IMG/VR virus record: IMGVR_UViG_3300021431_000077
Location: 1 to 39,061 of that record
Strand: one strand, 5' to 3'
DNA from: a virus
Taxonomy: Duplodnaviria > Heunggongvirae > Uroviricota > Caudoviricetes
DNA: 39,061 bases
The notes beneath the pieces were generated by a model. The model was not told where the DNA came from and searched no databases. It saw only the letters and a list, made by a program, of their open reading frames with translations. Position numbers and translations under genes: made by a program. Of the stretch, positions 4,141 to 28,332 are shown one piece after another (the first letter of the stretch is position 1; each line of letters opens with the position of its first letter).

Positions 4141-4695
4141 ATGAGAACTTCCGAAGAATACAACTTTCCAGACCTTCTGAATGACATCAGCGGGTATCAC
4201 CTCGAACGGTGGAACAAGAAGACCACTGCATCTGGGTTTGAACGCTATGCGTCCGTTGACGAGTGGAAGAACATGGCTTTAATGGAAGTAATTAGCGTGA
4301 AGTCCGAGAAAAAGCTGCATGACCTCACCATAGGAATCATAATCAATGTGCTGGATAGGGGGACTGTTCAGCTATGCCTTACCTTCAAAAGTGAGTACAG
4401 TAAAGGAAGACATACCTTCAAGGGTGACAAATCTATGTACCGTATGAGGATGGAGTTCCTTTTCTCCCGATTGAAGTGTAAGCAGTGGGTGCGTTTTGGC
4501 CTTGTTGAAGATGGTAGGTGCTGGCTTAGTGTTCCGCCATCGCATGCAACCGAGGTTCCAGACCTGCTGTGGGAGATATACAAGAACATTCTGCTATATC
4601 CTTGTGACAAGGCGTATGAGGATGTAGGAAAGAAGCCTGACCAGACTGCCACTTCGCTACCTGACCTATCATTCTCAGAGCTGGACGGGGTATAA
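4141..4695 (+). CDS. Hypothetical protein
   Basis: ATG at 4141 is in frame with the TTG at 4105 used by the ORF track. Confidence 0.65.
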   Translation: MRTSEEYNFPDLLNDISGYHLERWNKKTTASGFERYASVDEWKNMALMEVISVKSEKKLHDLTIGIIINVLDRGTVQLCLTFKSEYSKGRHTFKGDKSMYRMRMEFLFSRLKCKQWVRFGLVEDGRCWLSVPPSHATEVPDLLWEIYKNILLYPCDKAYEDVGKKPDQTATSLPDLSFSELDGV

Positions 4696-4727: not shown

Positions 4728-7700
4728 ATGGCGTTGTGCGATGAAATTGCAATAGAAACCCCCTTTATTATCTTTGGCCGTAACTATACAGGTCAGTTTG
4801 TTTCTCGCATATATGTTTCGGATTCTATTACCAGTCTGGAACTCGTCGATACGAACGGGTTGTTTAAGTTGACACCTGATAATTTGGGCATTTACAGTCT
4901 GTCGTTGTACAGGTGTGCCCTCATCAATGTTCAAACATGTGACTGCCCACCTAAAAACGAACTAAAACTCCGTGTTAACGGTACGGATGAATGTACATTC
5001 CAGATATACACGGTAATTCCTGGCCATGTCAAAAATGCGGCGACGGAAGCGAATACATTTGGAAAGCAGCTTGTGCTTGATTTTAATATGCTTCCCGTCC
5101 TTGACGCTAATGGCAAGACATCATGCGAAAAGGGCTTTGACCCGTCATCTGTAAACCTGTCTGATTTGCTCGCCTATTTCCATGTCCTTTTTGAAAACGA
5201 AGGTGAAAAGTCCGTTGCGGAACACTCTTCGTTCGAGACCCGTTTCTGCCAGATGTTCTATCAGAGCATTAAGATACAGCCTCGATACAAAATCAAGGAG
5301 ATGTTCAGCCCAGGTGATGTGCTTACCCTCAAATACAAGGTAGGCGTGGATGAATACGGAAACGACATCTACTATGTCATGGACAAGTCGGCTATTTACA
5401 AAGACGGCGTGAAGGAAACTGGTCCAATAGTTGTCAAGTATGTCCAGAACGACAATACGCTGACACTTGAACGCCCTGTTGATACTGATGCAACTGATGA
5501 CAGGAAGTTTACTACGCAGGTTATTCCTAATGGTTCCTACTACGATTATATTGAAGTAGGCAAGTCTATGGTAAGCGGAACCTTCGACACGTTGTCCCAC
5601 ATCTATATCATGAGCAAGGGCAACATCAAGGGGAAGGCAAAATTCTATGTGGATGGTGTGCTTGTCGGTACGTTCGGAAAGGATGTTGTCGGCAACGTGA
5701 GGGTTGATGGTGTTGAGTACAAAGTTTGGAAAGTTGACTTTGATTCAACCGTGCGGTTGACACTTGAATCGGTAATAGGCTTGAAGTCTCCTAACGGGGA
5801 ACAGTTTACGACATTGCTCATGGATGGAAGTGTCGTAATCGGGCAGAACATTGAAGAAATCGGCCTGTTGAAGTTCCCGATTGACCAGTGCCATAACGAC
5901 TTTATCGTAGAAGGTTCAAGTACCTCCTGCACCGAGCTGCAACTATACGATGGTGTCAGCACGGCCAATGTGCCTGTGTATGAACTTGACTTGGATAACA
6001 ACCAAATCAAGATAAATCTGATGCAGGGAATGTTCCCTGTGGACGAGCGTGGGCGTGAGGTATGCGGAAAGAGTAACATCGTTATCAGCGGAAAGGGCTG
6101 TGGTGAAGACCAACCAGCATACCGTGTTGATTTCCCTGTCATACGTTACGTGTACGACGGTTCTAAGTATGACGGAAAGTACACGACGGGTGCGAACTGC
6201 ATCTATACATCCCCAATCGAATTGAATACGGATGACTACAAAGGTGATTCAAATACGCCAGCCAAGAACTACGGAAAGGATATGTATGTCAAGCTGCGTG
6301 ACCCGCAGTCATGCTGTGCGATGAGATATCTTTCAGTCAAGGTGAAGTACAATGAGTATCTCCAATACAAGCACGGCGAACTTACACTGAATGGAATTAA
6401 GTTGCAGGAAAACGACTTGGTATGGCTTACATCGCAGTTCATCAAGGAATCCGAAGATGGAAAATCCGTAAACGAGAACGGATTGTGGATTGTAAAGAAG
6501 GGTGACTGGGAGTATTACGGAGATGTTACCGAAGATACGTTTATTGACCTTGGCGCCCGTGTCACCGAGACCGTGGCGGCAACAATCGAAAGCAATGTTG
6601 GAAGAAGGTACGGAAACTATTGGCTTGGAACAATCAATCTGAGAAGTGGTATGATTGTCAACCTGCAGAATCAGGCTGACGGCCAGAACGGCCTGTATCG
6701 CATCATGTGTGGCGAATGGAAGTATCTGGGTGAAGCTGGCCCGTATAGCGGCAATAGCGTCGATATGTCCAATGATATCGTCACCTACAACGACATTGAC
6801 TTCTGCAAGTGCGGAGTTTACCACATCTGGTATTACTACCTCAATGGCTCTTGCGTTCTGAATACGGCGACAAGGACAGTGAAGGTTGTAGGTAAGTGCG
6901 GTGAAAAGGACGGAACCCTTGTTCCTGGCAAACGAATCCGCATAACTGACTATCAGGTGAAGACGGAAGTCGATAAGGACTTGATGCCAGGTAGCAGCGG
7001 CGACCCGCTGATAGATGAGTGTGTAAAAAATGTTGAGTCATTTGACCAGCAATACAGATTTGACTTAGAAGATGTTGTTCAGCAAGGAAGCTGCATACAA
7101 GACGCTATCTACCCGAACTGCAATGAAGGTGCTCTATGCGACCACGAGTACGCCGCATTCTCCAAGGGGGAAGATGGCAAGTACAACAGCGCTGATGGTA
7201 CTGGATTCAGTATGGTGTTCTGGCAGGCAACAATGGAAGACGACCGTGTTGACTATTGGACGATGTACGCACTTGTTGGCCGTACCTCGAAGCATCCAAA
7301 AGAATATGTGGCATACCGCATACAGCAAGTTGGTGCGGCAACAGTTGAAATGGTAGATGTTACCGACTGGTTCGAACTTTTGCCAGTATCATACGATGAT
7401 GGCGAGAACACTTATTTCAGGAAGGTTCCGATAACTCGTGCTAACATTGCTACTGATACGATTACATTCGATTTGCCTGTCAACGACTATGTTGACAAGG
7501 TTCAGGTAGGCGATGTCCTGAATGTGTCGAACGGAAATGTGATGGAAGACAAGATGCGGGCCAAAGTAACCCGTATTGAAAATGGTGTTGCAACCGCTGA
7601 CATTACCCTACATGCTGGATTCAACAAAGATGACTACTATGTGGAGATTTATCGCCACAAGATGGTCGGGTATGGCATTGAAATCAGTGACCCGTCTTGG

Positions 7701-22206: not shown

Positions 22207-22289
22207 GCAGCCATGCTGAAATTGGTAGCCAGGCCAGCCTGTCACGCTGGTGTCCTATGGGCGTGCGAGTTCAAGTCTCGCTGGTTGCG
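22207..22289 (+). tRNA. tRNA-Asp(GTC) with long variable arm
   Basis: ccagc-ct GTC ac-gctgg; variable stem gtcc-tat-gggc; G73. Confidence 0.85.
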
Positions 22290-22296
22290 CTAATAT

Positions 22297-23785: not shown

Positions 23786-23857
23786 AAGTCAGTGTCGTTT
23801 GAAAGCGTTACTTAGGATGAAGCTAAAAAGAACACGCTTTCTCTTTTTACCTGACTT
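23786..23857 (+). ncRNA. Small Y-RNA-like hairpin (module A)
   Basis: aagtcag/ctgactt terminal stem; TGTCG opposite TCTTTTT internal loop; gaaagcgt/acgctttc stem; TACTT. Confidence 0.6.
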
Positions 23858-23864
23858 CTTTTGT

Positions 23865-23993
23865 TCCAGGATAGCTCAGTTGGTTAGAGCACGTAAAACA
23901 CCTGTTCGCCTTTTTCTCCCGCAAGGGTTGCGATAGAATGGGTTACTTAGCCTGTTAAGCTCGGGGTCGTAGGTTCGAGTCCTGCTCCTGGTA
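23865..23993 (+). ncRNA. tRNA-Asn(GTT) body carrying a 55-nt structured insert (23894-23948) in the anticodon stem
   Basis: Intact D and T arms; removing the insert gives cgagc-ct GTT aa-gctcg and a 74-nt tRNA. Confidence 0.75.
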
Positions 23994-24005
23994 CTAATAA
24001 ATTTC

Positions 24006-24094
24006 ATCCAGTGTCGATAGAAACCGTTACTTCGCTCTGTCTTTTACACAGATTTGCCCTAACGGGCGTAATCGGTTTCGCTTTTTACCTGGAT
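24006..24094 (+). ncRNA. Y-RNA-like hairpin with two apical stem-loops (module B)
   Basis: atccag/ctggat; TGTCGATA opposite GCTTTTT; gaaaccg/cggtttc; TTACTT. Confidence 0.6.
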
Positions 24095-24097
24095 TTC

Positions 24098-24223
24098 CCC
24101 AGTGTAGCTCAGTTGGTAGAGCGCGTAAAAGACCTGTTTGCTTTTCTCCCGCAAGGGTTGCGATAGAATGGGTTACTTAGTCTGCAAAACTCGTGGTCAC
24201 AGGTTCGAGTCCTGTCGCTGGGT
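24098..24223 (+). ncRNA. tRNA-Cys(GCA) body carrying a 53-nt structured insert (24126-24178) in the anticodon stem
   Basis: Removing the insert gives cgagt-ct GCA aa-actcg and a 73-nt tRNA with U73; 39 nt identical to the segment at 23912-23950. Confidence 0.75.
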
Positions 24224-25812: not shown

Positions 25813-25898
25813 GCGCAAGTACCCAAGTGGTCGAAGGGGGAGGTCTGCAAAACCTCTAGGCCGAAAGGCTCGCGTAAGTCCGAATCTTACCTTGTGCT
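25813..25898 (+). tRNA. tRNA-Cys(GCA) with long variable arm
   Basis: gaggt-ct GCA aa-acctc; variable ggcc-gaaa-ggct; U73; T-loop TCCGAAT. Confidence 0.8.
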
Positions 25899-26405: not shown

Positions 26406-26539
26406 CCCACAGTAGCTCAGTCTGGTAGAGCGCTAGTAAATGAACAGCCTTTCGCTTTTTTCCCTGCAAAGGTGACGTATGGATGGCTTACTTCGATAAT
26501 GGGAACTGGATGTCGTAGGTTCAAATCCTGCCTGTGGGA
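26406..26539 (+). ncRNA. tRNA-Pro-derived body with ~60-nt Y-like insert in the anticodon arm
   Basis: cccacag/ctgtggg with A73, Pro-type D and T arms; insert agcctttc/ggatggct, GCTTTTTT, cct-gcaa-agg, TACTT; residual tgg ga actgg. Confidence 0.65.
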
Positions 26540-26630: not shown

Positions 26631-26788
26631 ACATGCCGACGCCTCCCCGTCAATCTGGCGACAGGTTGATTAACGGTAGGGGAGGGTTCCTCTTACAACT
26701 TTCTCGGTGAAAATCGTTGCGACGTGAGAGTTACTTAGATTGCCATAACATTAATCTTGTGAAAGTTCGACTCTTTCCGTCGGCATGT
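26631..26788 (+). ncRNA. tRNA-like RNA (11-bp terminal stem, T-arm) containing the Y-like module
   Basis: acatgccgacg/cgtcggcatgt; gaaag-ttcgact-ctttc; ctcttac/gtgagag, cggt-gaaa-atcg, TTGCGA, TTACTT. Confidence 0.6.
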
Positions 26789-26800
26789 TTTTTCTTTTAT

Positions 26801-26939
26801 GTCAGATTAGCTCAATGGTAGAGCTCCAGGCCCAAAACTCAGCCACTTTCGCTTTTCCCAATCCATTTGGATTGTGGTGTAGAAACGTGCTACTTAGGAA
26901 TCATCCAGGAGGTTGTCGGTCCGAGTCCGACATCTGGCA
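26801..26939 (+). ncRNA. tRNA body with Y-like insert and degenerate anticodon, immediately upstream of Ro60
   Basis: gtcagat/atctggc; D arm gctc/gagc; T arm gtcgg-tccgagt-ccgac; agccactttc/gaaacgtgct, GCTTTT, TACTT. Confidence 0.65.
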
Positions 26940-26991
26940 ATACTTTTTTTAACAACATCAACAATTCCTAATCACAACAAAGGAGATGATT

Positions 26992-28332
26992 ATGGCGTCG
27001 ATTAACAAGAGAAAGGTATCTACCCCTGTGTTTACTTACGAGGGTGGAAAGGCTTCACGAATCGGTTTCGAGGAGAAGTTGCAGCGTACTGTGCTGTGCT
27101 GCCTCCTGAACGAGGATACGTTCTATGAGGACGGCGAGTCCATCAAGGACCGCATCAAGGAATACATGGGCAAGGTCAGCCCAGAGTTCGCAATCAAGAC
27201 TCTGAACAAGGCCAAGCACGAGTATCACCTTCGTCATACCCCGTTGTTCATGCTTACTGTGCTCGCAAGTCAGGGTAAGCTGACTAAGGAACTTGTTTAC
27301 TCGACGGTAACCCGTGTTGATGACATCACCGAGTTGCTCGCCATGTACCTCGCAGACGGCAAGAAGAAGACGCTTCCGAAGCAGTTGCAGAAGGGCTTGG
27401 CTATGTCGTTCGACAAGTTCGACGAGTACCAGTTCGGTAAGTACAAGGGTAACAAGAAGAATGTGTCATTGAAGGATGCAGTCATGCTGTGCCACCCGAA
27501 GGCACCGAATGACGAGAAGAACGCTCTCTACAAGAAGATTGTAGACGACAGCCTTGCTACACCGCTTACTTGGGAGACCGAGTTGAGCGCTGGTAAGGAC
27601 AAGAAGACGGTCTTCGAGAACCTTCTTTCAACGAACAAGCTGGGTGCCCTCGCCCTGTTGAGGAACCTCCGCAACATGGAGCAGGCAAAGGTGTCACAGC
27701 GAGCAATCGCAGACGGCATCTCGAAGATGAACGTGCGTGGTATCATGCCGTACAACTTCTACACCGCAAACAAGCACAGCGACGGAACCTACTCCAAGCA
27801 GATTGAAGCAGCAATGCTCAGGGCAGCTCGTGAGACGTTCGACAAGTTGGAGGGTAACACCCTGTTCATGGTCGATACGTCGGGTTCTATGGACAACCAT
27901 TTGGCAGGTAAGAGCGAAGTCACTCGTGGAGAGGCTGCCGCATCTCTCGCTGCCATCATGGATGAGGTCTGTGAGTTTGACAAGGTTTACACCTTCGATA
28001 TGGATGCACATGCAACCACATCCAAGGGTTTTGCACTTGCCGACCGCTGTTCTCGTTGCACTGGCGGTACTGACCTTTACGGTTGTACCAACAGTGCTGT
28101 TCGCGCTAACACCAGACCGTTTGACCGTGTGATTATCATCACCGACGAGCAGTCTATTGGCGGTTGCTTCACCAAGGATGTTCTCCGCATCCCGCACAAG
28201 TACATCGTGAATGTGGCTCCGCACCAGTTCGGAATCTCTTACGGTGACTTCATCCACATCAACGGATTCAGCGACGGTATCTTCAAGTACATCGCTGAGT
28301 ACGAGAAGATGGGTGCAAAGAGCGAAGAGTAA
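26992..28332 (+). CDS. rsr: Ro60/Rsr-like RNA-binding protein (TROVE + vWA domains)
   Basis: TYEGGKA, EDTFYE, LRHTP, FDEYQFGKY, TWETELS, LGALALLRNLRN (TROVE); VDTSGSM and IIITDEQ (vWA MIDAS); AGGAG SD before ATG 26992. Confidence 0.92.
   Translation: MASINKRKVSTPVFTYEGGKASRIGFEEKLQRTVLCCLLNEDTFYEDGESIKDRIKEYMGKVSPEFAIKTLNKAKHEYHLRHTPLFMLTVLASQGKLTKELVYSTVTRVDDITELLAMYLADGKKKTLPKQLQKGLAMSFDKFDEYQFGKYKGNKKNVSLKDAVMLCHPKAPNDEKNALYKKIVDDSLATPLTWETELSAGKDKKTVFENLLSTNKLGALALLRNLRNMEQAKVSQRAIADGISKMNVRGIMPYNFYTANKHSDGTYSKQIEAAMLRAARETFDKLEGNTLFMVDTSGSMDNHLAGKSEVTRGEAAASLAAIMDEVCEFDKVYTFDMDAHATTSKGFALADRCSRCTGGTDLYGCTNSAVRANTRPFDRVIIITDEQSIGGCFTKDVLRIPHKYIVNVAPHQFGISYGDFIHINGFSDGIFKYIAEYEKMGAKSEE

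What the first reader, a model, noticed from the sequence alone, without database searches (positions are those of the whole stretch)
23865..24223. tRNA-Asn and tRNA-Cys interrupted at the same non-canonical site (between nt 28 and 29) by near-identical inserts
Deleting 23894-23948 (55 nt) gives a perfect cgagc-ctGTTaa-gctcg anticodon arm. Deleting 24126-24178 (53 nt) gives cgagt-ctGCAaa-actcg with U73, so both Cys identity elements are present. The two genes share an identical 39-nt segment (23912-23950 = 24142-24180) on different tRNA scaffolds, which suggests recent module copying. Known bacterial tRNA introns are group I or II, much longer and mostly in the anticodon loop. These inserts are too short for either. 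Inference: either a new short tRNA-intron type needing a trans-acting nuclease and ligase, or a retained extra arm at a three-way junction.
Basis: partly seen in the sequence, partly recalled or inferred. Interest (0 to 1): 0.85.

Follow-up and report, generated by a model that had tools for sequence, protein, structure and literature searches.

The report
tRNA-shaped Y RNAs with Ro60 handle
The two "interrupted" tRNA genes are most likely not intron-containing tRNAs but tRNA-shaped small RNAs that permanently carry a folded docking arm for the phage's own Ro60-like protein, a design that recurs next to Ro60 genes in many phages, including the cultured gut phage crAss001.

Summary
Deleting 23894-23948 and 24126-24178 gives textbook tRNA-Asn(GUU) and tRNA-Cys(GCA) cloverleaves, and 39 nt are identical between the two inserts.

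The insert is not private to these two genes. The window holds five embedded copies and two free-standing, circularly permuted copies. All lie on the + strand within 3.2 kb upstream of a TROVE/Ro60-like gene (26986-28332).

A covariance model of the insert hits nowhere else in the own 175-kb record, two complete 420-kb relatives or crAss001. It does hit within about 0.9 kb of the TROVE gene, always on its strand, in about 20 of 75 diverse phage contigs and in 14 bacterial loci.

All 11 modelled pairs covary. The conserved unpaired parts (UGGCGWAG, UACUU) match the two motifs reported for bacterial YrlA Y RNAs (GNCGAAN0-1G, YUAY).

No archaeal splicing endonuclease was found. RNA-library contigs show only the unspliced form, which is weak evidence.

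Best reading: a retained Ro60-docking arm at a three-way junction in the anticodon stem, that is, a permuted YrlA-like RNA. The intron reading is unlikely (about 0.1). The scan has noted related phage Ro60/tRNA-mimic RNA sets on other DNA before.

The parts
23865..23993 (+). Asn*: tRNA-shaped RNA with acceptor, D arm, T arm, a module arm and a complete GUU anticodon hairpin. It has U1.U72 and A73, followed by a CUAA trailer.
   Evidence: Rfam tRNA hit; ARAGORN after deletion; trailer
23894..23948 (+). 55-nt insert, the docking module. Inner helix ACCUGUUC/GAAUGGGU; loop strand GCCUUUUUCU; outer hairpin CCC-GCAA-GGG; loop strand UUGCGAUA; tail UACUU.
   Evidence: Covariance-model hit 23893-23950, 73 bits; covariation
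23949..23963 (+). Anticodon hairpin AGC-CUGUUAA-GCU plus C42 G43. It is invariant in all Asn* orthologues.
   Evidence: 0/15 differences versus 6-16/57 in the module
24098..24223 (+). Cys*: tRNA-shaped RNA with a module arm, a GCA anticodon hairpin, U73 and a CUAA trailer.
24126..24178 (+). 53-nt insert, the docking module. Its 3' 37 nt (24142-24178) lie in the 39-nt block 24142-24180 that equals 23912-23950 of Asn*.
   Evidence: Covariance-model hit 24125-24180, 68.9 bits; identity
23787..23856 (+). Free-standing module 1 in classical Y-RNA connectivity. Outer stem AGUCAG/CUGACU; UGUCGUUU; inner stem GAAAGCG/CGCUUUC; UUACUUAG; UCUUUUUAC. It lies between tRNA-Tyr and Asn*.
   Evidence: Sequence; fold; conserved in L003-L009
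24006..24094 (+). Free-standing module 2. Outer stem AUCCAG/CUGGAU; UGUCGAUA; inner stem GAAACCG/CGGUUUC; UUACUUCG; GCUUUUUAC.
   Evidence: Fold z = -4.0, 0 of 200 shuffles as stable
26406..26539 (+). T3: tRNA-like body with an intact 5-bp anticodon stem. The module (26439-26495) and 11 unpaired nt take the place of the loop. No tRNA is restorable.
26632..26787 (+). tRNA-like remnant with a 10-bp terminal stem and a T arm, carrying the module at 26682-26738.
   Evidence: Covariance-model hit 32.9 bits, E = 3e-5; sequence
26801..26939 (+). T4: tRNA-like body with acceptor, D and T arms, the module at 26836-26897 and no recognisable anticodon.
26986..28332 (+). TROVE/Ro60-like protein with a vWA MIDAS motif (DxSxS); the proposed partner of the modules.
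   Evidence: Pfam TROVE E = 4e-15; PDB best hit is Thermus phage phiLo Ro60 9L5Y/9KOP, E = 8e-26 over residues 12-437; invariant D297 S299 S301

Best explanation
Asn* (23865-23993) and Cys* (24098-24223) are tRNA-shaped, Y-RNA-like small RNAs. They are not split tRNA genes awaiting splicing. The 53-55-nt insert is a retained, folded module. It has an 8-bp inner helix and a short outer hairpin closed by a GNRA loop. Between them lies a conserved asymmetric internal loop, GCUUUUUCC on one strand and UGGCGWAG on the other. An invariant UACUU tail follows. The module leaves the anticodon stem after base pair 28:42 as the third arm of a three-way junction. The remaining 3 bp and the 7-nt anticodon loop stand beside it. 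This is why deleting the insert 'restores' a perfect anticodon arm. The module is the docking site for the phage's Ro60 homologue encoded 2.8-3.1 kb downstream (inferred). The architecture is that of bacterial YrlA (Ro stem, then V, T arm, acceptor, D arm, Ro stem) but circularly permuted. Here the Ro stem is closed by a tetraloop and the acceptor stem is open. The RNA should therefore be cut out of the tRNA array by RNase P and RNase Z like its neighbours, and it may receive CCA (inferred). What the Ro60-tethered tRNA body with its conserved Asn or Cys anticodon hairpin then does is not shown. The most plausible role is in phage tRNA quality control or repair, or counter-defence: presenting a tRNA or anticodon-arm mimic to a host factor, or recruiting PNPase or RtcB.
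For: (1) Family. The window holds five embedded and two free-standing permuted copies, all on the + strand within 3.2 kb upstream of the TROVE gene. The same set is present in seven related rumen megaphage contigs.
(2) Specificity. Model R2 finds 4 (own record), 5, 5 and 2 copies in the own 175-kb record, two complete genomes of 419 and 422 kb, and crAss001. All lie next to the TROVE gene and none elsewhere in about 1.1 Mb.
(3) Linkage across lineages. Among 75 diverse TROVE-bearing viral contigs (35-42% protein identity), 29 hits fall in about 20 loci. All are on the TROVE strand, at most about 0.9 kb from the gene, and none are in about 170 kb of control loci. There are 17 analogous hits upstream of TROVE genes in bacterial contigs.
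(4) Structure under selection. Over 41 distinct sequences all 11 pairs show changes on both sides. 88.7% of cells are paired, against at most 52% when the partner is slid. The covariation score is 0.65 against 0.20 for shuffles.
(5) Motifs. The consensus unpaired strand UGGCGWAG and the invariant (U)UACUU correspond to GNCGAAN0-1G and YUAY, the two conserved 5' motifs of YrlA. The first is proposed there as the Rsr contact (PMC4201824; Rfam YrlA consensus). Phage phiLo Ro60, the best PDB match of this protein, binds Y-like RNAs encoded next to its gene that carry a CGAA motif in a stem-bulge-stem (PMC12135203).
(6) Permutation. The same motif set occurs in two strand connectivities. This is expected for a selected RNA fold and not for a DNA insertion or an intron.
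(7) Not restorable elsewhere. In T3, T4, the 26632-26787 element and the L006-L009 paralogue with an 8-nt loop, no deletion restores a tRNA.
(8) Identity elements. Asn* has A73 and U1.U72, whereas the array's true tRNA-Asn has G73. The L004 Cys* orthologue has A73 instead of U73.
(9) Trailer. Asn*, Cys* and T3 carry the same N73-CUA trailer as 19 of 33 ordinary tRNAs in the array.
Against: No binding, processing or expression experiment exists, so the Ro60 link rests on gene neighbourhood and motif resemblance. Rfam's YrlA model does not match these RNAs, and the strand opposite the GNCGAAG-like motif is U-rich here but A-rich in YrlA. The anticodon hairpins of Asn* and Cys* are invariant, while the module changes at 5-16 of about 57 positions. 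Exons that are better conserved than the insert are also what an intron would show. The genome encodes RtcB, the ligase an intron model would need. The alignments used for the larger covariation counts were fitted to the model structure, which inflates them somewhat.
Confidence: 0.65

Rival explanations
1. A new short tRNA intron. A trans-acting endonuclease cuts at 28|29 and after UACUU, and RtcB joins the halves to give functional tRNA-Asn and tRNA-Cys. The released hairpin might then serve as a Y RNA.
For: Deletion restores canonical anticodon arms, also in unrelated phages such as L038 (CGUCA-CUGUUAA-UGACG) and L051. The anticodon hairpins are invariant while the insert drifts. RtcB is encoded in the own record and in both complete relatives. 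The window's other tRNA-Cys is atypical, with a long variable arm.
Against: No EndA-family endonuclease is present in the own record, two complete relatives or crAss001, although the search detected it in four archaeal control genomes. The junction lies inside a potential GUAA/UUAC helix and not in a bulge-helix-bulge (sequence). crAss001 has the module-bearing RNAs and TROVE but no RtcB. Sibling copies cannot yield a tRNA, and free-standing permuted copies have nothing to splice. Asn* lacks G73, and the L004 Cys* lacks U73. No insert-free orthologue exists in viral contigs. RNA-library contigs from three studies span both junctions unspliced and none shows a clean 53- or 55-nt skip. This last point is weak, because contigs drop rare forms and DNA carry-over is possible.
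Confidence: 0.1
2. The module is a retained structured arm whose partner is not Ro60. It might bind another protein (RtcB, PNPase, an aminoacyl-tRNA synthetase, a nuclease), or act as a ligand sensor or small ribozyme. On this reading its closeness to TROVE genes reflects a shared operon only.
For: Binding is untested. Rfam YrlA does not match. The U-rich strand differs from YrlA. Ro60 systems work with PNPase and RtcB (PMC12135203, PMC7790460 abstracts).
Against: The linkage is to the TROVE gene specifically, at most about 0.9 kb away and on the same strand, in phages that share little else. RtcB is absent from crAss001. The conserved unpaired motifs are those assigned to Ro60/Rsr recognition in known Y RNAs.
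Confidence: 0.15
3. Decaying tRNA pseudogenes disrupted by a small mobile DNA element (MITE-like), with no function.
For: Multiple near-identical copies lie close together. One 39-nt block is identical.
Against: The genes are orthologous and syntenic in eight genomes, with only 0-3 changes in 59 nt of the Asn* tRNA body (up to 8 in 58 nt in Cys*). The module helices covary, copies occur in permuted order, there are no target-site duplications or terminal repeats, and the same design exists in crAss001 and dozens of unrelated contigs.
Confidence: 0.03

Closest known systems
YrlA (Y RNA-like A) of bacteria and mycobacteriophages, partner of Rsr/Ro60 (Chen et al. 2014, PMC4201824; Rfam RF02553; Wang et al. 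2018, bioRxiv 10.1101/312249)
   Same: Encoded beside a Ro60/TROVE gene. tRNA-like D and T arms. A stem, internal loop, stem 'handle' with a GNCGAAG-type motif followed one helix strand later by YUAY. The same cyclic order of elements: handle, V, T arm, acceptor, D arm, handle.
   Different: The connectivity is circularly permuted. In YrlA the RNA ends lie in the handle and the acceptor stem is closed by a loop, with no free CCA end. Here the handle is closed by a GNRA loop and the acceptor stem is open, with tRNA-type flanks. A full 7-nt anticodon loop (GUU, GCA) is kept as an extra branch. The strand opposite the motif is U-rich and not A-rich. The Rfam model does not match.
Yrl1/Yrl2 of Thermus phage phiLo bound by phiRo60 (PMC12135203; PDB 9L5Y, 9KOP)
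   Same: A phage Ro60 homologue, the best solved-structure match of the window's protein. It has Y-like RNAs encoded next to the gene, a stem-bulge-stem with a CGAA-type motif, and a reported ternary complex with host PNPase.
   Different: Those RNAs are free-standing hairpin-type Y RNAs, like the window's 23787-23856 and 24006-24094, and are not embedded in tRNA bodies.
Archaeal and eukaryal tRNA introns at non-canonical positions (bulge-helix-bulge, EndA plus RtcB)
   Same: A short insert in a tRNA gene outside position 37/38. Removal gives a canonical tRNA. An RtcB ligase is encoded in the genome.
   Different: No bulge-helix-bulge at the junctions and no EndA homologue. The insert is a conserved, covarying structure that is also found free-standing and in non-restorable tRNA mimics. 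The genome is a phage; a near-identical contig sits in a sheep-rumen Bacteroidaceae MAG, which is only a host hint.
Bacterial group I tRNA introns
   Same: An interruption of a bacterial-type tRNA gene in the anticodon arm.
   Different: 53-55 nt is far too short. There is no Rfam intron match, and the position is in the stem and not the loop.

Membership tests
YrlA / bacterial Y RNA (RF02553) | Encoded adjacent to a Ro60 (TROVE) gene | tested here: met
   All copies lie at most 3.2 kb upstream of 26986-28332. There are none elsewhere in about 1.1 Mb of four phage records. The same linkage holds in about 20 of 75 other viral TROVE loci.
YrlA / bacterial Y RNA (RF02553) | GNCGAAN0-1G motif in the handle, then YUAY after the next helix strand | tested here: met
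   Consensus over 41 sequences is U G G C/U G W W G, then an 8-nt helix strand, then U-UACUU, with UACUU in 39-41 of 41. The window's own copies read UUGCGAUAG, UGACGUAUG and UGUCGAUAG, matching 4-5 of 6 defined positions.
YrlA / bacterial Y RNA (RF02553) | tRNA-like D and T arms | tested here: met
   Rfam tRNA model hits of 38-47 bits run end to end across Asn*, Cys*, T3 and T4.
YrlA / bacterial Y RNA (RF02553) | RNA ends in the handle, acceptor-like stem closed, no free CCA end | tested here: not met
   The handle is closed by CCC-GCAA-GGG. The acceptor strands are about 120 nt apart and flanked like those of tRNAs. Only the two free-standing copies have their ends in the handle.
YrlA / bacterial Y RNA (RF02553) | Reaches the Rfam gathering score | tested here: not met
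   No YrlA hit on these RNAs even at E <= 1. For comparison, CcrColossus YrlA-like RNAs score 30-42 bits.
YrlA / bacterial Y RNA (RF02553) | Bound by Ro60/Rsr in vivo | not testable with these tools
   Needs RIP or EMSA.
Bulge-helix-bulge tRNA intron | Two 3-nt bulges separated by a 4-bp helix at the splice sites | tested here: not met
   By inspection, the only 4-bp helix bridging the two junctions is G28-U-A-A with U-U-A-C. This puts the 5' junction inside a helix and not in a bulge.
Bulge-helix-bulge tRNA intron | EndA-family splicing endonuclease available | tested here: not met
   PF01974 is absent from the own record, two complete relatives and crAss001. The control search detected it in four archaea. 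A host enzyme cannot be excluded.
Bulge-helix-bulge tRNA intron | Spliced product detectable | tested here: inconclusive
   RNA-library contigs show only unspliced forms, but contigs cannot prove absence.
Group I / group II intron | Catalytic core detectable, length over 200 nt | tested here: not met
   The inserts are 53-55 nt and have no Rfam intron match.
Decoding tRNA-Asn / tRNA-Cys | Acceptor-end identity (G73 for Asn, U73 for Cys; E. coli rules, from established knowledge) | tested here: not met
   Asn* has A73 and U1.U72 in all orthologues. Cys* has U73 in the window but A73 in L004.
Decoding tRNA-Asn / tRNA-Cys | Uninterrupted 5-bp anticodon stem able to enter the ribosome | tested here: not met
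   A 53-55-nt arm interrupts the stem between pairs 28:42 and 29:41. Whether the ribosome tolerates this cannot be tested here.

The most novel reading that the evidence does not exclude
The chimeras are processed, CCA-tailed and perhaps aminoacylated tRNA bodies that stay tethered to the Ro60 ring. On this reading the phage displays authentic Asn, Cys and other anticodon stem-loops as decoys or sensors for host anticodon-directed nucleases or modification enzymes, coupled to PNPase or RtcB. Alternatively, the handle is removed on demand, so that Ro60 gates the release of a functional tRNA. Either reading would link Ro60/Y RNA biology directly to tRNA-targeting phage defence.
Probability: 0.2. 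Interest if true: 0.85.

Novelty: new variant of a known kind. Interest (0 to 1): 0.6.

Why it matters
Y RNAs that mimic tRNA have been known since 2014, but what the tRNA-like part is for remains open. Here the mimicry is nearly complete. The RNAs have an open acceptor stem in a tRNA array, tRNA-type trailers, and canonical Asn and Cys anticodon loops that stay invariant while the Ro60 handle drifts. The handle enters at a conserved point, after nt 28. The Asn-type CUGUUAA loop recurs in unrelated phages and bacteria. This points to the anticodon arm as the functional cargo and gives a concrete hypothesis to test. crAss001, a cultured and abundant human-gut phage whose TROVE gene is expressed early (PMC8375218), carries two unannotated RNAs of this kind. 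That makes the open question directly testable at the bench. There is also a practical consequence for annotation: such genes are missed or mis-called by tRNA finders. ARAGORN called a truncated 'tRNA-Asn' at 23927-23994 and missed Cys* altogether.

Tried and rejected
(a) Metatranscriptome contigs. I looked for a clean 55- or 53-nt skip and found none. The listed joints with 15-20 foreign letters between the sides are ordinary tRNAs of other organisms sharing the D and T arms. Unspliced contigs are present in three studies, but their depth is similar to that of neighbouring non-tRNA DNA, so DNA carry-over cannot be excluded. This is neither proof of expression nor proof of no splicing.

(b) A scan of viral contigs for the insert-free Asn or Cys anticodon region gave only two unrelated ordinary tRNA-Asn genes.

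(d) MAFFT alignment of the whole genes (A1) was out of structural register in the module and was not used for pair counts.

(e) Single-sequence folds of whole RNAs are mostly no better than shuffles (z from +0.1 to -1.8). Only free module 2 stands out (z = -4.0). I therefore relied on covariation.

(f) My automatic parse of the anticodon arm in diverse loci mis-set the D-stem end in several cases. I cite only the cases I checked by eye.

(g) Three papers could not be read because they are not held: the Sim et al. 2020 review, Sim & Wolin 2018, and Burroughs & Aravind 2016. A prior description of the permuted form there cannot be excluded.

Full report
**Observation**

The window carries an array of about 36 tRNA genes on the + strand between 19.4 and 28.8 kb.

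- Rfam's tRNA model matches 23865-23993 (129 nt) and 24098-24223 (126 nt) from the first to the last model position, with a large insertion in the anticodon arm.
- Removing 23894-23948 or 24126-24178 leaves 74- and 73-nt sequences that ARAGORN folds as normal tRNA-Asn(GUU) and tRNA-Cys(GCA).
- Both inserts follow nucleotide 28.
- 39 nt are identical between the two inserts.

It is also incomplete. The tRNA model finds two more over-long 'tRNAs' at 26406-26539 and 26801-26939, and their inserts resemble those of Asn* and Cys*.

**Anatomy of the insert**

All copies share one plan:

- an inner helix of 8-9 bp;
- a U-rich strand (GCUUUUUCC type);
- a short outer hairpin, usually closed by a GNRA loop (CCC-GCAA-GGG in Asn* and Cys*);
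- a return strand (UUGCGAUA, UGACGUA or UGGUGUA);
- the 3' strand of the inner helix;
- an invariant UACUU.

A covariance model built from the Asn*, Cys* and T3 groups of the window and its relatives, then rebuilt on its own hits, finds exactly five copies in the 39-kb window with filters off: 23893-23950, 24125-24180, 26439-26495, 26682-26738 and 26836-26897.

Two more copies, at 23787-23856 and 24006-24094, have the same motifs in circularly permuted order. Their 5' and 3' ends form the outer stem, and the inner helix is closed by a variable loop. Free module 2 folds far better than shuffles (z = -4.0). A motif set that recurs in two strand connectivities is the signature of a selected RNA fold. 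It is not what a DNA insertion or a spliceosome-type signal would leave.

**Neighbourhood**

The next gene downstream (26986-28332) encodes a TROVE-domain protein (Pfam E = 4e-15). Its best solved-structure match is the Ro60 homologue of Thermus phage phiLo (E = 8e-26 over nearly the full length). It keeps the vWA MIDAS motif.

The window belongs to a 175-kb fragment of a rumen megaphage. Relatives of 419 and 422 kb are complete. An RtcB RNA ligase lies about 40 kb away.

**Comparative evidence**

*Close relatives.* Seven related viral contigs (TROVE identity 83-99%) carry the same series: tRNA-Tyr, free module, Asn*, often a second free module, Cys* or a paralogue, then T3, a remnant type and T4, then the TROVE gene.

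Among Asn* orthologues:

| Region | Differences |
|---|---|
| tRNA body | 0-3 of 59 positions |
| Anticodon hairpin | 0 of 15 |
| Module | 6-16 of about 57 |

The module keeps its helices despite this drift.

*Covariation.* Pair counts on three alignments of increasing breadth:

| Alignment | Distinct sequences | Pairs changed on both sides | Cells paired | Paired when partner slid |
|---|---|---|---|---|
| A2 | 15 | 4 of 11 | 92% | at most 61% |
| A4 | 18 | 9 of 11 | 91% | at most 55% |
| A5 | 41 (including distant phages) | 11 of 11 | 88.7% | at most 52% |

For A5 the covariation score is 0.65 against 0.20 for shuffles. The larger alignments were fitted to the model, which favours the structure somewhat. 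The MAFFT-only alignment A2 already shows the effect.

*Specificity.* The model hits nothing else in the own 175-kb record. In the two complete 420-kb genomes it finds five copies each, all in the 3.4 kb upstream of the TROVE gene. In crAss001 it finds two copies just downstream of the TROVE gene gp96.

*Generality.* I fetched 75 further viral contigs encoding TROVE proteins only 35-42% identical to the window's. The model gave 29 hits in about 20 of these loci. Every hit is on the TROVE strand and within about 0.9 kb of the gene. There were none in about 170 kb of control loci.

Inspection shows the same composite RNA in these loci:

- acceptor strand, D arm, N26-C27-G28;
- an A-rich linker, the module, UUACU;
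- a 3-bp/7-nt hairpin, C42-G43;
- variable loop, T arm, acceptor strand.

In L038, deleting the module gives CGUCA-CUGUUAA-UGACG, and in L051 it gives GUCGA-AUGCUAA-UCGAC. In others (L035, L045, and T3 of the window) the 5-bp stem is intact and the module sits in the loop.

Seventeen analogous hits lie upstream of TROVE genes in bacterial contigs. There the acceptor-like stem is closed, as in classical YrlA.

*crAss001.* crAss001 is a cultured phage. Its two RNAs (L011 4088-4231 and about 4330-4490) are not annotated in the record.

**Comparison with known Y RNAs**

Chen et al. 2014 describe YrlA as follows (PMC4201824):

- a handle whose 5' strand carries GNCGAAN0-1G, proposed as the Rsr contact;
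- a conserved YUAY at the start of the V region;
- then a T arm, a closed acceptor-like stem and a D arm, before the handle's 3' strand.

The Rfam consensus, seen on CcrColossus RNAs, shows this layout. The consensus of 41 module sequences here is UGGCGWAG, then an 8-nt helix strand, then U-UACUU. Both motifs are therefore present in the same order. Read cyclically, the order of tRNA elements is also the same.

The differences are these:

- the permutation (open acceptor, closed handle);
- the extra anticodon hairpin;
- the U-rich opposite strand;
- Rfam's model does not match.

The phiLo study reports that a phage Ro60 binds two Y-like RNAs encoded beside its gene through a CGAA-bearing stem-bulge-stem, and that it assembles with host PNPase (PMC12135203).

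**The intron alternative**

Points in favour:

- the anticodon arm is restored exactly;
- the anticodon hairpins are invariant;
- RtcB is present.

Points against:

- No EndA-family endonuclease is found in any of four phage records, although the search detected it in archaeal controls.
- The 5' junction lies within a potential GUAA/UUAC helix and not in a bulge.
- crAss001 has the RNAs and TROVE but no RtcB.
- Sibling RNAs cannot be turned into tRNAs by any deletion.
- Free-standing copies have nothing to splice.
- Asn* has A73 and a U1.U72 mismatch, where the array's ordinary tRNA-Asn has G73 and U1-A72. The L004 orthologue of Cys* has A73.
- No insert-free orthologue was found.
- In four rumen metatranscriptome assemblies, contigs from three studies span the junctions unspliced, and none shows a clean 53- or 55-nt skip.

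The last point is weak. These are contigs, and DNA carry-over is possible. In the retained-arm model the 'restoration' needs no splicing. Pairs 27:43 and 28:42 and pairs 29:41 to 31:39 simply flank a three-way junction.

**How it most likely works**

*Shown:*
- a conserved, covarying RNA module tightly linked to Ro60 genes;
- its placement after nt 28 of otherwise tRNA-like bodies;
- tRNA-type 3' trailers: N73-CUA in Asn*, Cys*, T3 and 19 of 33 ordinary tRNAs.

*Inferred:*
- The precursor is cut by RNase P and RNase Z like its neighbours.
- The module folds as a side arm and docks the Ro60 ring.
- The particle presents a tRNA body with an Asn- or Cys-type anticodon loop.

The purpose is unknown. 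The Asn-type loop CUGUUAA recurs in unrelated lineages (L036, L038, L097, L147; L031 has UUGUUAA). In L006 a Cys-type loop sits inside a free module. Together these suggest that the anticodon arm is the cargo. It could serve as a decoy, sensor or substrate in conflicts over tRNA cleavage and repair. This would fit the known Ro60-Y RNA-PNPase and rsr-yrlBA-rtcBA connections (abstracts).

**The 39-nt identity**

The window's Asn* module differs from Cys* modules by 4-5 positions but from the Asn* modules of other genomes by 10-16. This indicates recent gene conversion between the two modules, which lie 230 nt apart. One RNA-library contig joins 23911 to 24142 across this repeat, showing a strain in which the two genes have recombined.

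**Verdict**

The intron reading is unlikely. The retained-arm reading is supported and sharpened to a permuted, YrlA-like Ro60 partner RNA.

I found no published description of this connectivity in the papers I could search, but three key papers were not available. Earlier notes of this scan report related phage Ro60/tRNA-mimic RNA sets on other genomes, and the same module family on this window. I used those notes as leads and re-tested the claims here.

Noticed in passing
window 25813-25898: tRNA-Cys(GCA) with U73 but a long, type-II-like variable arm (86 nt). This is unusual for tRNA-Cys, and it is the only other Cys-anticodon gene in the array.
   Followed up: no
window 24037-24053 (inside free module 2); L006 about 7035-7050: The variable loop of free module 2 holds a 5-bp/7-nt hairpin UCUGU-CUUUUAC-ACAGA, shaped like a tRNA-Lys(UUU) anticodon arm. 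The loop varies in relatives (CUUUCAC in L005, 9 nt in L003). In L006-L009 the loop of free module 1 holds a Cys-like CUGCAAA loop, while the Cys* gene is replaced by a paralogue.
   Followed up: partly
L006 7341-7471, L007 7547-7676, L008 6642-6772: In four relatives the second module-bearing gene has an 8-nt loop, AUUAGGAA, in place of the Cys anticodon loop, with a different acceptor stem and G73.
   Followed up: partly
L036, L038, L097, L031 (viral), L147 (Hyphomonas MAG): An Asn-type loop CUGUUAA (UUGUUAA in L031), closed by 3 bp that start in the UUACUUCN tail, recurs directly after the module in unrelated TROVE loci.
   Followed up: partly
L063, L057, L035, L045: Several distant tRNA-like bodies start AUGG and have an 8-bp acceptor stem with C73, like the bacterial tRNA-His G-1:C73 pair. 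In four of the seven bodies checked (L063, L035, L045 and one of two in L057) an encoded CCA follows C73.
   Followed up: no
window 23911/24142 (RNA run X16, record 9): A 907-nt contig joins Asn* to Cys* across the 39-nt repeat and skips 230 nt, including free module 2. This is a natural recombinant strain.
   Followed up: no
window, 3' flanks of the tRNA genes: 26 of 33 ordinary tRNAs are followed by C-U/G-A directly after the discriminator (CTA in 19, CGA in 7) instead of CCA.
   Followed up: partly
L105 (JAFXNA010000004.1): A 317-kb contig with a 96%-identical TROVE gene is binned in a sheep-reticulum Bacteroidaceae MAG. This is either a host hint or a mis-binned phage.
   Followed up: no
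L011 (NC_049977.1 about 96.2-96.6 kb): crAss001 carries two unannotated module-bearing tRNA-like RNAs and further UUACUUC repeats downstream of gp96 (TROVE). ARAGORN-type annotation misses them.
   Followed up: partly
window 22207-22290: tRNA-Asp(GUC) is 84 nt long, with an extended variable region.
   Followed up: no
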